From: Octopus vulgaris
Lineage: Eukaryota
Assembly: GCA_951406725.2 (NCBI GenBank)
Contig: OX597815.1
Coordinates: 123,814,001 to 123,878,000 of the forward strand
DNA length: 64,000 nucleotides
Direction: 5' to 3'
The position numbers and the translations under genes are program-made. The notes beneath the pieces were generated by a model. It was given only the letters and a program-made list of their open reading frames with translations, did not search any database and was not told where the DNA came from. Positions 503 through 62,931 of the stretch are shown piece after piece. Every line of letters begins with the position of its first letter. Positions within the stretch are counted from its first letter, which is position 1.

Positions 503-644
503 ACGATGTAAATTTGTGACCTGGATATAGAAACTGGAGGTTTCGAAGTAGTTGTCGATAGTTACCCTTTTTGTTTTTGATTTTTATAGAGCTATTCAGA
601 TCTGCTAGACAGCTGACCTCTTTGACGGTATATACTTTTTCTTG
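503..644 (-). mobile_element. Diverged fragment of R4-like RLE non-LTR retrotransposon (TACA-associated family)
   Basis: Minus strand reads QEKVYTVKEVSCLADLNSSIKIKNKKGNYRQLLRNLQFLYPGHKF, which aligns by eye with [45 protein letters not shown] at 1198-1373. Its 5' end abuts the (TATG)n tract. Confidence 0.7.
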
Positions 645-761
645 TATGTATGTATGTATGTATGTATGTATGTATGTATGTATGTATGTATGTATGTATG
701 TATGTATGTATGTATGTATGTATGTATGTATGTATGTCCGTATGTATGTTTGTATGTATGT

Positions 762-1376
762 ATTTCAATATTCAGTTTATTTCAAGATTTCTTGCCAATA
801 GAGAAAGAATCGGTTTCTAACCTAGATCTAAGCTCCTTCATTGGAATGTCAATATCAACAACAGGATATTTTTGTATGTATGTATGTATGTATGTATGTA
901 TGTATGTATGTATGTATGTATGTATGTATGTATGTATGCATGCATGCATGCATGCATGCATGTATGTATGTATGTATGTATGTATGTATGTATGTATGTA
1001 TGTATGTATGTATGTTTGTATGTATGTATGTGCAGATTTGCATGCATTATGTATGTATTCTCATGCATATAGTTGCATATCTAGACATGCTCATATATAT
1101 TTAAATGATAAACTTCTGGAAAGTTTTACAGATTTTACAGTTCCAGTGATGGATTGGATCTGTAGTCTTGTGAAGCCTAATTTCTCGAGATTGATATTTA
1201 GGTATTAATTACAGGTATAAACCTGAACTTGTAATCTGGATAGAGTAACTGCAGATTTCTCAATAGTTCAGCATAGGTGTTCTTTTTTTCACTGATCTTT
1301 AGCTTTATGTTAACGTCCACTGGGCTGCTAATTTCCACAACTGTGCACAATTTCTCTTCTCTATCCCAAATAATTA
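762..1376 (-). mobile_element. 5'-truncated R4-like RLE LINE 3' end with 3' UTR (TACA-associated family)
   Basis: Minus strand encodes [55 protein letters not shown]...LQIQSITGTVKICKTFQKFII*, an RLE endonuclease C-terminus. The 3' UTR contains an internal (CATA)n and ends CTTGAAATAAACTGAATATTG before (ACAT)n. A homologous copy lies at 57358-57862. Confidence 0.8.
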
Positions 1377-1689
1377 TGTATGTATGTATGTATGTATGTA
1401 TGTATGTATGTATGTATGTATGTATGTATGTATGTATGTATGTATGTATGTATGTATGTATGTATGTATGTATGTATGCATGCATGCATGTATGTATGTA
1501 TGCATGTATGTATGTATGCATGTATGTATGTATGAATATATGTATGTATGTATGTATGTATGTATATATGTATGTATGTATGTATGCATGTATGTGTGTA
1601 TGTATTTATGTGAGTACATGTGTATGTATGTATGTATGTATGTATGTATGTATGTATGTATGTATGTATGTATGTATGTATGTATGTAT

Positions 1690-2029
1690 GTGCAGATTTG
1701 TATGTTATATATATGTATTCTCATGCATATATTTACATATCTAGACATGCTTATATATATTTAAATGATAAACTTCTGAAAAGTTTTACAGATTTTTATA
1801 GTTCTAATGATGGATTTGACGTGTAGTCTTCGAATTAGCTTTCTCCTTTCTGGTTTTGAGACGCCTAATTTCTCATGATTGGTATTTAGGCCTCCAATAA
1901 CATGCAATCTGGATAGAGTAGTAACTGCAGATTTCTCAATAGTTCAGTATAGGTGTTCTCTTTTTCACTGATCTTCAGCTTCATGTTAACATCCGATGGG
2001 CAGTTAATTTCCACAACTGTGCACAGTTT
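1690..2029 (-). mobile_element. 5'-truncated TACA-associated RLE LINE fragment
   Basis: [37 protein letters not shown] plus the same stop and UTR as 762-1376; flanked on both sides by (TATG)n. Confidence 0.8.
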
Positions 2030-2133
2030 ATGTATGTATGTATGTATGTATGTATGTATGTATGTATGTATGTATGTATGTATGTATGTATGTATGTATG
2101 TATGTATGTATGTATGTATGTATGTATGTATGT

Positions 2134-59410: not shown

Positions 59411-59849
59411 AATGATATCTTATGATATCGACACTAATAACGAAAGCATTAGGCCTTGTGATTTGTGCTATTAGGATAACGATCATAATGTCGTACGTTC
59501 GATTCCTGGCCCGGGTGGCGTTTTGTGTTCTAGAGCAAGGTGCTTTATTCCATGTTGCTTCAGTATATTCATCTGCAAGTGCTGCATCCTCGAGGTTTTG
59601 CTGGGTTAAGGGTCGAGAGGGTATCTATGTCAGCTCACAACTACATAGATGCCTTTTTAGGTGCCTGTGTAGTCTCGAGCAGACATAGAAAGGATGATGC
59701 ATGCTACTAAGTCATACACACTTGCGAGTGACTGCTGTAGTTTGATTATTAATATATGTTTAAAAGGAAGAAATTTAATAGTGATAAAAAATGGTTGATA
59801 ACCTGGGGAAAAAAGATAGCGGATGATACAAATAAAATATTTTACTCAC

Positions 59850-59968
59850 GTTTGAGACAATCCCGGGAATTTTTATCAAATTGCAGCCAACCAGGACAAC
59901 AGCTGTTGATCAGTTTAGTTTGTACTTCTGTCCGGTACACCTTCCGCATGGCGAGTTTGTAAACAACC
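59850..59968 (-). CDS. EGFL7/8: EGFL7/8-like exon: C-terminal half of EMI domain
   Basis: Acceptor GATTTCTATTATAG|, donor |GTGAGT; 119 nt, phase 2 to 1. VVYKLAMRKVYRTEVQTKLINSCCPGWLQFDKNSRDCLK contains the EMI CCPGW motif. Confidence 0.9.
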
Positions 59969-60904
59969 CTATAATAGAAATCATTTTAATGAAAACTCAA
60001 AAGAATGGTATATTATGGAAAATATGTTATTATATAGAGACGTCGAAAAGTAGATCAATAAACAATTGAAATTGAAATCATTTAATTTGTGTGGGTGAAC
60101 CTTGAATTTTATGAAAACGGTTGTAGCTTAGTACAAGTTGATTTCCCTAATGTACTCTTAAACGTAAGCCTTTCTGTCTAAAATAACTTTCAGTATATTT
60201 CTTTTTCCTGGAAGATTGAAAACTGAAGAATGTTATTACTTATTTTATCAACACGGTAAAGTAATTTCCCGTCATTCATGATAGGCAGATAATTTACGAA
60301 GAAAGTGGAAATAAGAGAATGAGGGATCAAAAGATAGTAAGAAATATATGGAAGGTAGTACACTAGACAAAATAGCTTTGTCAAGTTTATTCGCTTCAGT
60401 ATATTTCTTATAATAATTTTCACTCCCTTCTCGATAAAGAGAGAAGACAGTAAAATAAAAGGCGTTGAAAAAATACAAAACAACACACAAAAAAAACAAA
60501 TAAAAAAATTTTAAATGAAAAGAGAGTGTAAGGATTATATATATATATATATATATATATATATATATATATACACTATATATATTGGTACTATATATAT
60601 GTATACATACATATATACATATGCATATACATATACATATATATATATGTATATATATATATATATATATATACATACATATATATATATATATATATAT
60701 ATATATATATATATAATAATAATAAATATTAGGGAATAAATCCAAATTTACAGGGAAAAATCAGATTTAGGACTGAATCCAATTTTATAGTAAAATATTA
60801 TATAATATTAATTAGAGACAAAACCACTATTATGCAAATCAAACAAAGAAAGACTTAATCCAATACATAAAAAAATTTATATAAATTAAATAAAATTAAA
60901 TTCG

Positions 60905-60950
60905 CCACTACAATTGTTTCGTGTCTCTTCTAATGACATTCATCAGGTGG
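60905..60950 (-). ncRNA. Type I hammerhead ribozyme motif (palindromic ACAAUUGU stem III)
   Basis: CCAC-CUGAUGA-A-UGUC(AUUAGAAGA)GACA-C-GAA-ACAAUUGU-A^GUGG. The core is intact, but the first stem II pair is A-C instead of G-C. Confidence 0.62.
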
Positions 60951-62844
60951 TATTCAGATCTAAAAATAATCAATATTTTAAGATATAAATTTAAAATGAC
61001 TAAAAAATATAAATAATATAAATTTATCAATGAAAACATATATATATAATCTATATATAATCAAGAACTAAAATAACCTCTATAAACAATTGAATATAAT
61101 GAAACCTAGTATTTAAGTTCTCATATTTAAAGATGAAGAATCTAATTTCAAAAAACAAAAAGCAAAAATTAAAATATATATACACACATGCTCATACCCA
61201 AATATCTAAGTATATATATAAACATATCTAAGTACATACACTAACTCACACACCCATATATATATATATATCTATACATACACATAAACTTCTAGGCAAC
61301 GATAAATTAATAAAGTAGCCGTATACTTCTACACATTACTTATTCATACTCCCACACATACACATACAACCCTCATTCATAAACCACATCCAGCAGCCGC
61401 AGATACTCAACAACAACCCACAGAAACATTTCATTCTTAGCAATAAACTACCAAATACCATATACCACATATATACAACAGCCATACATAAATACTTAAA
61501 ACAAACACACACACACATATTCCAAATACCACATGCATGCAACAAACATACACAAATACGCAAACAAACACACACACACGCACACATTCACACATACATA
61601 AACACCCAAAGGAAAACATCATTTCTACACATAAACAATGCACACCCACACACTCACACACACAATCACTCGCACACAACCGCACTCCCACCGCAACACT
61701 CCAACACAGAGGAGTAACAAATTCAGCAGATACATACACTCAGCCACACACATACAGGAACATTCCCTACTCAGCAATATACTATTAAAAACACCAACAC
61801 CATTCTAAAACAAATTTATGAATAAGAATAATAACTTATATAAAATTATTCTATTATTAAACATAACCTAAGCCATTTAAAACGAACCTATCTATTTATT
61901 AAAGTATGTCTAAATTATTTAATAACTAATAACAAAGAAAAATACGATAAATAGATCACTACATAAACAACAAGATTAACATAATGAGAATATATTATTC
62001 AAAAGCTTATACATATTAAAATTACAATTAGGAGATCTTAAAAAATACGTACCTTCTATTCAATTTTAAGTTATGAAGTAAATTTAAAAGCCTAACTGTT
62101 ACAGCGTTAACAAAATTACATTATCAAGGAAATAGAATATATTTTTAATAAATTCTTTGCGCGTGATGAACGAACGTTATTTTAAAGATTATGAATGGAA
62201 TAGAATAGAATATGTTAATCAACGTAAATAGACTGAATTTACTAAAAAATTCTTTAATAAAGCAATCATGATAAACGAAACCCATACATACAAATATAAT
62301 GATAAAACATCCCTTTACCAAATACACAATAACAAACCTATATAGCAATCCTCCCATCAATACATTCACACACAAATACACACACATATTTACACACACC
62401 CACAAACATATACATATACACACTCACATATACATATACATACGTACAATACTCGATATATCCACCAATATATTCACACCCACACCCATACAGAAAATAA
62501 ATAAATACATATACATTCATAATAGTGGTTTTGTCTCTAATAATATATATATATATATATATATATATATATATATATATATATATATATACATATACAT
62601 ACATACATATATACATATATATATACATATATATATACATATATATATATATACGCATACACATACATACATACATACATCATCATCATCATCATTGTTC
62701 GACCGTGGTCGAGACAATACATACTTACATACTTACATACTTACATACTTACATACTTACATACATACATACATACATACTTACATACATACATACATAC
62801 ATACATACATAATCAAAATAAGCAACAAGGATATCCAGAGGTAG

Positions 62845-62931
62845 TGCAGTAGGATCGTTTCATGCGACTCCATTTAATTGAACAATGCAAACATTACAGC
62901 AATTTAAAATGTAGAGAAATATTCAGCTGCA
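62845..62931 (-). ncRNA. Decayed hammerhead-like motif in a probable Penelope-like remnant
   Basis: TGCAG-CTGAATA-(long AT-rich insert)-GAAAC-GATC-CTA-CTGCA: a 5-bp stem I brackets a core with two substitutions. The layout is the same as 20486-20558. Confidence 0.45.

What the first reader, a model, noticed from the sequence alone, without database searches (positions are those of the whole stretch)
503..62931. Overall system: retroelement families partition the microsatellite landscape
Seen: Dong and element E lie at (TAA)n, the second R4-like family at (TACA)n, and hammerhead/Penelope-like pieces mostly at (TA)n. The two RLE families keep consistent polarity. Inference: microsatellites act as motif-specific safe-harbour niches that the elements both use and extend, which could help explain the extreme simple-repeat content of this genome. 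The sample here is small.
Basis: inference. Interest (0 to 1): 0.7.

Follow-up and report, generated by a model that had tools for sequence, protein, structure and literature searches.

The report
Retroelements sorted by microsatellite motif
In this animal (likely octopus) genome several jumping-gene families each sit in their own kind of short DNA repeat and in a fixed direction, likely because their enzymes aim at that repeat; the TAA and TA preferences are already known, the TACA-dwelling relatives of Dong look like a new variant, and these elements touch too few repeats to explain why the genome is so repeat-rich.

Summary
The motif sorting is real and holds genome-wide, including at 5' junctions and after abundance correction. 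Dong (family A): (TAA)n at 30/30 3' ends and 19/29 visible 5' junctions, none reversed. The 'second family' is two related RLE LINE families (B, B'), about 31% identical to A, in a separate clade. B has (TACA)n at 14/28 5' truncation points; a genome-wide test gave 40 same-strand matches against 1 reversed. A metagenome relative sits in (CTTA)n at both ends. Element E follows Dong. Two hammerhead families prefer (TA)n, but a third carries its own (TAA)n, so sorting is by family, not by superfamily. Nested insertions show use of existing tracts, often other elements' tails. Extension is unresolved (P=0.15 in the unbiased sample), safe harbour is untested, and the named families abut only 104 of 1,349 tracts. 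Dong/(TAA)n and Penelope/(TA)n are published. This scan already noted ACAT-homing R4/Dong LINEs in another genome (e1-10329220) and TA-dwelling hammerheads in this one.

The parts
510..644 (-). RLE-domain fragment of family B' (second family of the TACA clade); 5' junction at (TACA)n
   Evidence: tblastn 51% to family B over 45 aa, none to A; nucleotide match to L168 and L263
643..3148 (.). Array of (TACA)n/(TGTA)n tracts holding the B and B' pieces, all on the minus strand; partly tandem-duplicated
737..872 (-). Conserved terminal block of the family B 3' UTR, downstream of an internal (ACAT)n tract; likely the true 3' end
   Evidence: follows ORF/UTR pieces in 14 of 30 loci; 534 of 934 exact hits followed by ACATAC within 3-6 nt
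1032..1374 (-). Family B 5'-truncated copy: RLE C-terminus and first part of the 3' UTR; (TACA)n at both ends
1692..2028 (-). Family B truncated copy (duplicated at 2456-2792, 98.5%)
2135..2246 (-). Family B fragment (99.1% to 1263-1374)
2456..2792 (-). Family B truncated copy
2882..3063 (-). Family B' C-terminus and 3' UTR, (TACA)n at both sides
   Evidence: 79% to the B' copy in L168, 82% to L054
5135..5159 (-). Hammerhead ribozyme core, not beside a (TA)n tract; exception to the TA rule
   Evidence: no copy in the random sample
20490..20546 (+). Hammerhead-core-like motif with long, weak stem II; (TA)n about 120 bp downstream
   Evidence: read from sequence; not passed by the strict scans
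20980..21185 (-). P1 hammerhead-bearing Penelope-type end (variant core), (TA)n both sides
   Evidence: 2,441 exact 26-mer hits
34335..34528 (-). P1 copy with CTGACGA...GAAA core at 34436-34458; (TA)n at its 3' end
36449..36790 (+). Penelope-type end whose short reading frame resembles a GIY-YIG C-terminus (by eye); (TA)n at the 5' junction
   Evidence: no Pfam hit
37972..38485 (+). Element E, about 520-550 bp non-coding element between (TAA)n tracts
   Evidence: 5,476 of 7,179 exact 3' hits followed by AATAATAAT
38486..38562 (+). (TAA)n tract shared by the tail of E and the 5' junction of Dong A
38567..39325 (+). Dong family A, 5'-truncated copy (zinc knuckle, RLE, 3' UTR), (TAA)n both ends
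40124..40308 (+). tRNA-head-like SINE ('SB') whose (ATT)n tail is the tract holding the minus-strand Dong copies
40423..40504 (-). 82-bp 3' copy of Dong A lying in the tail of the longer copy
40520..42650 (-). Dong family A, 5'-truncated copy with a 675-aa open frame (RT, CCHC, RLE); (TAA)n both ends
   Evidence: Pfam RVT_1 E=4.7e-25, zf-RVT 1.3e-05; R2 proteins are the only PDB hits
42720..42925 (+). Second SB SINE directly after the (ATT)n at the Dong 5' junction
48593..48688 (-). P2 end of a degenerate-hammerhead family between (TA)n tracts
51838..52186 (-). Second E copy, 3' part missing, (TAA)n at the 5' end
52340..52640 (-). 3' fragment of a further, older RLE family, followed by (CAA)n/(TAA)n
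53440..53900 (-). Further RLE family 3' fragment with a short (TAA)n tail
   Evidence: 25% aa to A's C-terminus
57355..57861 (-). Second family B locus with terminal block; 5' junction at (AAAG)n, only a short ACATAC at the 3' end (exception)
60722..61000 (-). Penelope-type end with CTGATGA...GAAA core at about 60917-60946, beside (TA)n
62812..62931 (+). Repeat end with head-to-head copies elsewhere; abuts (TACA)n here, (TA)n in 4 of 8 random copies; hammerhead not tested

Best explanation
Each of these retroelement families sits in one microsatellite motif and on one strand, likely because its own (or a borrowed) endonuclease/reverse transcriptase nicks one strand of that motif and primes copying there. 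Shown: the family-motif-strand association at both junctions, nested insertions into tracts that belong to other elements, two RLE clades with different motifs (A with TAA; B and B' with TACA), and elements that carry internal seed tracts. Inferred from R2-type target-primed reverse transcription (established knowledge, not tested here): the N-terminal SANT/Myb-like domain and RLE pick the motif, the nicked (TTA)n or (TGTA)n strand primes at the RNA 3' end, possibly pairing with a (UAA)n or (ACAU)n RNA tail, and this fixes polarity. E is likely a passenger of a Dong-type enzyme. P1 and P2 are likely Penelope ends placed by GIY-YIG enzymes with the known TA bias. Many targets are tails or internal tracts of other elements, so the TAA group partly builds its own landing sites. 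The system adds tracts locally but is a minor share of the total simple-repeat load.
For: Background for a tract at a random junction: AAT 7, ATT 4, ACAT 11, ATGT 10, AT 44 of 3,000. A: 3' AAT 30/30, 5' AAT 19/29 visible at many different truncation points, ATT 0; random sample 5' 8/13 truncated, 3' 9/11. B: 5' ACAT 16/30, or 14/28 without the window's own copy and the reference, ATGT 1; 4 of 5 further long copies; random 5' 4/6, 3' 6/6; genome-wide truncations just before one ORF position: 40 matches (28 places by my count) with ACAT against 1 with the reverse motif. E: 5' AAT 14/27, 3' 12/16. Conditional on any tract being present, Fisher P = 2e-19 (A), 3e-11 (B), 7e-13 (E), 7e-10 (P1 3'); within-locus control P <= 0.0014 for all four groups. 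Nesting: E between the head and body of a tRNA-headed hammerhead element in L302, B' inside B's internal tract in L054, P1 inside SINE A's internal tract in L184. 11 of 18 scorable 5' tracts of A abut another element. Clade-level heredity: 13 of 20 non-B metagenome relatives examined end in (TAA)n, and L311 of the B clade has (CTTA)n at both ends.
Against: No biochemistry, no target-site duplication and no empty allele was seen, so cleavage specificity is inferred. 10 of 29 A and 14 of 30 B 5' junctions lack the expected motif; some are explained by later insertions, not all were examined. The 30 A loci all come from the first 5 Mb of contig C1. Only 1 of 3 B-clade metagenome loci shows a flanking repeat. 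E shares no 3' tail with A or B; its link to Dong rests on shared motif, shared polarity and one chimeric junction (L137). Pairing of the RNA tail with the primer could give the same pattern with a less specific nuclease.
Confidence: 0.75

Rival explanations
1. The tracts are only the elements' own tails; 5' tracts are tails of upstream copies, and targeting comes from RNA-tail/primer pairing rather than from protein recognition.
For: 11 of 18 scorable 5' tracts of A abut another element, 8 of them co-oriented Dong or E copies. B and the tRNA-headed hammerhead element carry internal tracts, so part of the association is cargo, not target.
Against: 7 of 18 5' tracts have no recognised neighbour, and A also uses tracts at the heads of antisense SB SINEs. 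Nested cases lie in internal tracts of unrelated elements. The pure 'tail only' form cannot give tracts at variable 5' truncation points. The tail-pairing form is not excluded.
Confidence: 0.17
2. Insertion is near random; elements and microsatellites pile up together in the same low-constraint regions, and selection leaves the copies that fell in harmless tracts (safe harbour by survival).
For: Dong loci lie in clusters rich in trinucleotide tracts; the within-locus expectation for AAT (10.8 of 31) is far above the genome-wide share.
Against: Regional bias cannot give strand polarity (40 against 1; AAT 19 against ATT 0). The association stays significant within loci. Young copies at 97-99% identity show it already.
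Confidence: 0.04
3. The elements are a main engine of the genome's simple-repeat excess by using and extending tracts.
For: For (TAA)n, 53 of 121 tracts abut a named element. Summed 5'+3' tracts at 19 A loci (mean 250 bp) exceed the length-biased expectation from lone tracts (149 bp; 0 of 10,000 resamples). Carried seeds expand after insertion (internal ACAT in B; a (GTA)n run inside the ORF of L306).
Against: The finding's families abut 104 of 1,349 tracts (7,598 of 80,765 bp); with all named and de novo repeats 435 of 1,349. B abuts 6 of 94 ACAT tracts. Single flanking tracts are no longer than lone ones (AAT median 69 against 72, AT 48 against 44). In 15 random A/E loci the sum (mean 173 bp) is not above expectation (P=0.15). 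Old element remnants would be missed, so the shares are lower bounds.
Confidence: 0.1

Closest known systems
Dong / R4 clade RLE non-LTR retrotransposons (Dong of Bombyx, DongAg, DongBg; ostracod Dong) - PMC3812793 and PMC7998251, passages read
   Same: Family A: RT, CCHC knuckle, RLE, N-terminal SANT/Myb-like domain, insertion in (TAA)n. PMC7998251 states that (TAA)n is the Dong target in most insects, molluscs and cnidarians. Dong-R4 LINEs are reported as abundant and recently active in Octopus vulgaris (PMC13282606, parts 1-2 of 3 read).
   Different: Families B and B' have the same architecture but only 31-32% identity to A, form a separate clade and sit in (TACA)n; a relative sits in (CTTA)n. 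B carries an internal tract in its 3' UTR. The octopus annotation text that I read does not discuss targets.
Waldo (WaldoAg1, WaldoAg2, WaldoFs1), R1 clade, (ACAY)n-targeting - PMC3812793 passage
   Same: Target motif ACAT/ACAC.
   Different: Waldo uses an APE endonuclease; B and B' encode a C-terminal RLE. Convergence on a target, not membership.
Penelope-like elements with (TA)n bias (Naiad, Neptune; Hydra with hammerheads) - PMC8557442 passages; animal retrozymes as PLE passengers - bioRxiv 10.64898/2026.07.22.740005 passages
   Same: Short hammerhead-bearing ends in (TA)n, head-to-head inverted copies.
   Different: The tRNA-headed hammerhead element P7 carries an internal (TAA)n and has no tract at 27 of 30 3' ends; that tract is itself used by E and Dong.
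Microsatellite birth and interruption by non-LTR elements (L1/Alu; Kibi, Koshi, Mino, Togen) - PMC3812793 abstract and passage, PMC4640811 passages
   Same: Elements both make and interrupt microsatellites; targeting multicopy repeats is already framed as a low-harm strategy (PMC4640811).
   Different: Here several such specialists coexist at high copy number in one genome and use each other's tracts.

Membership tests
R4/Dong clade (family A) | Single ORF with RT followed by CCHC knuckle and RLE (PD..D/E) domain | tested here: met
   Pfam RVT_1 and zf-RVT; motifs aligned; R2 proteins as PDB hits
R4/Dong clade (family A) | N-terminal SANT/Myb-like domain without R2-type zinc fingers | tested here: met
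   W-T-x-E-E motif in L204, L201; matches the N-termini of A-like relatives by eye. Not scored against a Myb profile; Pfam gave no Myb hit for relatives
R4/Dong clade (family A) | Insertion in (TAA)n | tested here: met
R4/Dong clade (family A) | Grouping with named Dong/R4 sequences in an RT tree | tested here: inconclusive
   No named Dong sequence was available. A groups with a louse RT (P0081, 47%) and with (TAA)n-ended metagenome elements; quick trees, midpoint root
R4/Dong clade (families B, B') | RT, CCHC, RLE and N-terminal SANT/Myb-like domain | tested here: met
   B: (hhalign of B-type against A-type N-termini, probability 88.9%, E 2.4e-06). B': RT to RLE in L168; its N-terminus was not seen
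Dong in the strict sense (families B, B') | (TAA)n target | tested here: not met
   (TACA)n instead
R4/Dong clade (families B, B') | Phylogenetic placement inside R4/Dong | tested here: inconclusive
   Separate clade with SH-aLRT 100, no R2/NeSL/HERO outgroup in the tree; the 28S-inserted L334 has a long branch. B' was not in the tree
Waldo (R1 clade) | APE endonuclease, two ORFs | tested here: not met
   B has a C-terminal RLE and an R4-like N-terminus
EN+ Penelope-like elements (P1-P4) | Hammerhead core in the terminal repeat | tested here: inconclusive
   Cores readable in P1, P3, P7; strict scans passed only 5135-5159 in the window and none there; cleavage untested
EN+ Penelope-like elements (P1-P4) | RT plus GIY-YIG ORF | tested here: inconclusive
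   Only a short GIY-YIG-like C-terminal stretch at 36449 by eye, no Pfam hit; no full element fetched
EN+ Penelope-like elements (P1, P2) | (TA)n insertion bias | tested here: met
   P1 3' AT 22/30 and 15/17; P2 15/19
EN+ Penelope-like passengers (P7) | (TA)n insertion bias | tested here: not met
   3' end without a tract in 27/30; internal (TAA)/(CAA)n in 21/30
SINE (element E) | Pol III (tRNA/5S/7SL) head | tested here: not met
   No Rfam match better than E=9.1; no tRNA by ARAGORN; degenerate A/B boxes were not modelled
SINE (element E) | 3' tail shared with a partner LINE | tested here: not met
   No similarity to full-length A or to B; full-length C and D families were not available
Retroposed non-autonomous element (E) | Fixed 3' end with simple-repeat tail, 5'-truncated copies | tested here: met

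The most novel reading that the evidence does not exclude
B and B' belong to an old, undescribed sister clade of Dong that targets tetranucleotide repeats and has switched motif between hosts ((TACA)n here, (CTTA)n in L311), while the A clade kept (TAA)n. Together with the still intact-looking A family and passengers that carry seed tracts, this gives a natural series for finding what retargets an R2-type enzyme from one simple repeat to another, and a self-feeding community in which elements make each other's landing sites.
Probability: 0.5. Interest if true: 0.62.

Novelty: new variant of a known kind. Interest (0 to 1): 0.42.

Why it matters
How RLE retrotransposons change target is an open question with practical weight, because R2-type proteins are used for gene insertion. 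Two clades with the same architecture but different simple-repeat targets, one with near-intact young copies, make domain-swap and tail-swap tests possible. For cephalopod genomics, the result sets a number on the idea that retroelements cause the repeat excess: large for (TAA)n, small overall. It also warns that (TAA)n and (TACA)n markers often sit on element ends.

Tried and rejected
DNA search of G000 with the Dong 3' end returned nothing because common words are skipped; patterns were used instead. Rfam on the window gave only miRNA-like matches to simple repeats among the 150 of 166 rows shown. Empty alleles: laying 4 of 24 listed runs on 37400-43000 gave no record bridging a tract; contigs break at the repeats and raw reads were too thin, so filled-versus-empty lengths could not be compared. 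A strict hammerhead scan found 16 hits in 1.4 Mb (0 in reversed controls) but missed known families; 10 of the 16 had no tract within 300 bp and 7 came from one array, so I did not use it for the TA test. E as an internally deleted A or B element: rejected. B as a recent offshoot of A: rejected (31-32% identity). A shared 3' motif between B's terminal block and other Dong ends: weak, 6 invariant columns, not counted. P7 as a Penelope that targets (TAA)n: rejected, the tract is internal in 18 of 30 loci that show the head upstream without an insertion. Dong-(TAA)n-P7 loci L015, L016 and L020 show no head upstream and L010 is rearranged, so only L302 is clean nesting in that element. The first metagenome scan found nothing. 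The careful tree did not finish; quick trees are reported. A genome-wide count of Dong 3' tails was not obtained. Searches for a published (TACA)n or tetranucleotide target in R4/Dong found none. Kojima and Fujiwara 2004 and Repbase were not read, the Xiong and Eickbush note was not held, and no supplements were read; any of them may already list such a family.
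Full report
Setting. The window is G000:C2:123814001-123878000 in a 2.8-Gb, 227-contig genome. The repeat content resembles published octopus genomes; the organism is my inference. Perfect tracts of 18 bp or more cover 6.7% of the window, and tracts of 20 bp or more cover 5.1% of a 1.4-Mb sample of 140 evenly spaced 10-kb stretches, L061-L200. For comparison, 4.6% is reported for Argonauta by another tool (PMC9635652, passages).

What is in the window. Family A is a Dong-type LINE: a 675-aa frame with RT and zinc knuckle and an RLE motif, in two 99.7% identical copies on opposite strands plus an 82-bp copy in the tail of one. Each has (TAA)n on its own sense strand at both ends. 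The longest copies elsewhere are 3.97 kb and start in (TAA)n. B gives most pieces of the 643-3148 array; B' gives 510-644 and 2882-3063 and is 40-57% identical to B in protein. Block 737-872 is the terminal part of B's 3' UTR, behind an internal (ACAT)n tract. E is a fixed-length non-coding element with some 5'-truncated copies. A further old RLE family has two fragments ending near (TAA)n. Exceptions in the window are the B locus at 57355-57861 (5' junction at (AAAG)n), the hammerhead at 5135-5159 and the piece at 62812.

Genome-wide test of the association. Exact-pattern counts are lower bounds: A 9,825, E 7,179, P1 2,441, P7 1,432, B terminal block 934. A junction classifier scored a motif when about 14 of 16 bases matched within 12 bp. 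Background at 3,000 random positions: AAT 7, ATT 4, ACAT 11, ATGT 10, AT 44. A, first 30 pattern hits on C1: 3' AAT 30/30; 5' AAT 19 of 29 visible, none ATT. B, best 30 of 150 scored protein hits: 5' ACAT 16/30 (14/28 without the window's copy and the reference), ATGT 1, AC 2, ACAG 1, none 10. B terminal block: 3' ACAT 18/30; genome-wide 534 of 934 are followed by ACATAC. Five further long B copies: four start in (TACA)n, one in (ACAG)n. Copies truncated just before one fixed ORF position: 40 matches with the sense motif (28 places by my count), 1 with the reversed motif. E: 5,476 of 7,179 3' ends are followed by AATAATAAT. The unbiased sample agrees: A 5' 8/13 truncated, 3' 9/11 (one ATT, one AAG); E 5' 14/27, 3' 12/16; B 5' 4/6, 3' 6/6; P1 3' AT 15/17; P2 3' AT 15/19. 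Corrected for motif abundance the enrichments are 7.9-fold (Dong group/AAT), 8.8 (E/AAT), 10.8 (B/ACAT) and only 1.75 (hammerhead ends/AT, the commonest motif); all stay significant against the motif mix of the same locus (P <= 0.0014).

Targets or tails? Tracts at variable 5' truncation points cannot be the copy's own tail. Nesting shows use of existing tracts: E lies between the head and the hammerhead body of a tRNA-headed element in L302, B' lies in B's internal tract in L054, and P1 lies in the internal tract of SINE A in L184. In the window the minus-strand Dong copies lie between two SB SINEs in the (ATT)n that is SB's tail. Of 18 scorable 5' tracts of A, 11 abut another element: A 3, E 2, D-type end 2, C 1 (all co-oriented), SB 2 and SINE A 1 (antisense). 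The (TAA)n niche is therefore shared and partly self-made.

Where the partition fails. P7, a hammerhead with a canonical core, has (TAA)n or (CAA)n at 21 of 30 5' sides and no tract at 27 of 30 3' sides. It is the body of a tRNA-headed element, often with head-to-head inverted copies, and the tract is cargo. An earlier scan note (e1-8663524) mentions such a hitchhiker; I did not check that it is the same element. So 'hammerhead pieces at (TA)n' holds for P1 and P2, not for the class.

Do they extend tracts or explain the load? Single tracts beside elements are as long as lone tracts (AAT median 69 against 72; AT 48 against 44). The 5'+3' sum exceeded the length-biased expectation in 19 A loci from one chromosome end (250 against 149 bp; three 5' values there were under-measured) but not in 15 random A/E loci (173 bp, P=0.15). 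No empty allele could be read. The finding's families abut 104 of 1,349 tracts, 9.4% of tract bases; all named and de novo repeats abut 435. For (TAA)n the share is 53 of 121, for (TACA)n B abuts 6 of 94, for (TA)n the hammerhead ends abut 32 of 633, fewer than SINE A's 68. These are lower bounds, because rare and old families are missed.

What B is. B is 31-32% identical to A and groups with unnamed proteins from other organisms in a clade with SH-aLRT 100 (quick trees of 39 and 25 hand-picked rows, midpoint root). Its N-terminus (L306) aligns with A-type N-termini (probability 88.9%), the region that PMC7998251 (passages) calls SANT/Myb-like. Of 80 metagenome loci, 3 score better with B than with A; L311 is full length and has (CTTA)n at both ends in one orientation, and the other two show no flanking repeat. 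Of 20 other loci whose ends I printed, 13 end in (TAA)n, 1 in (CAA)n, 1 lies in 28S rDNA and 5 show no repeat.

Mechanism. Shown: motif, strand, nesting, clade difference, carried seeds. Inferred from R2-type target-primed reverse transcription (own knowledge; R2 proteins are the only PDB hits): strand-specific nicking of the repeat and priming at the RNA 3' end. Protein recognition against tail-primer pairing is not separated by my data.

Comparison with what is known. Dong in (TAA)n, Waldo in (ACAY)n, Mino, Kibi and Koshi are listed in PMC3812793 (passages and abstract), which calls them all APE-type although PMC7998251 describes Dong as RLE. (TA)n bias of Penelope-like elements is in PMC8557442 (passages). 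The low-harm framing is in PMC4640811 (passages). Dong-R4 expansion in octopus is in PMC13282606 (parts 1-2 of 3) and PMC8967140 (passages), without targets in what I read. PMC3124438, PMC11481361 and the retrozyme preprint (passages) added little. I found no paper on a (TACA)n-targeting RLE element, but the primary surveys and Repbase were not seen. The scan's unreviewed note e1-10329220 reports the same pattern in another genome; I met it after reaching this reading.

Verdict. Observation confirmed; interpretation partly supported. The overall system is a dense example of known microsatellite targeting. The TACA/CTTA clade is the new element. Interest 0.42.

Noticed in passing
L311:1-4871: Full-length B-clade RLE element from a metagenome contig with (CTTA)n at both ends and a 3' UTR of about 1 kb; its ORF looks long and would suit a target-swap test.
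   Followed up: partly
L276-L305, e.g. L297:1331-1560 in element orientation: tRNA-head-like sequence, internal (TAA)n, then a canonical hammerhead core; often head-to-head inverted like Penelope insertions; at least 1,432 exact copies.
   Followed up: partly
L306:1280-1480: A (GTA)n/(GGT)n run has expanded inside the family B ORF and keeps a 484-codon open frame; it is short in L310.
   Followed up: no
L137 (E hit at element position 206): A 5'-truncated E is fused directly to a Dong-type RLE coding sequence without a tract, which may be a template-switch chimera.
   Followed up: partly
L125:8314-9200 (-); L299:1246-1416 in element orientation: Two more Dong-type 3' ends (C, 59% aa to A; D) that end in (TAA)n and form co-oriented arrays with A and E.
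   Followed up: partly
L162:3821-3921 and L077:638-738: De novo flank clusters tied to other motifs: one end followed by (ATG)n in 19 of 26 cases, another by (ATCT)n in 7 of 9. More motif-linked families exist than the finding names.
   Followed up: no
window 3826-4315, 15253-15622, 17081-17472, 28997-29382, 36063-36377, 51183-51359: SINE A (about 200 copies in 1.4 Mb) carries an internal (CA)n/(TA)n linker and abuts more TA and CA tracts than any family in the finding.
   Followed up: partly
window 55947-56835: Tc1/mariner-type remnant (DDE_3, E=6e-05) with terminal inverted repeats between (TA)n/(CA)n tracts.
   Followed up: no
window 28456-28546: 91-bp palindromic element between two (TA)n tracts.
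   Followed up: no
window 27655-27940 and 28709-28990: 99% identical local duplication of about 280 bp separated by (TA)n tracts; no copy in the random sample.
   Followed up: no
window 10568-11014 (-): 149-aa open frame with an RLE-like 'PDGLTL...IWD' stretch (by eye) from yet another element; no Pfam hit; not beside a tract.
   Followed up: no
L334:1-4196: R4-like element inserted in 28S rDNA in a metagenome contig.
   Followed up: partly
L061:2300-4520: Array of seven hammerhead repeats about 355-360 bp apart in two opposed arms (retrozyme-like).
   Followed up: no
G000:C2:44917873-44987051: Eight family B 3' ends within 70 kb, all on one strand; perhaps a larger tandem duplication.
   Followed up: no
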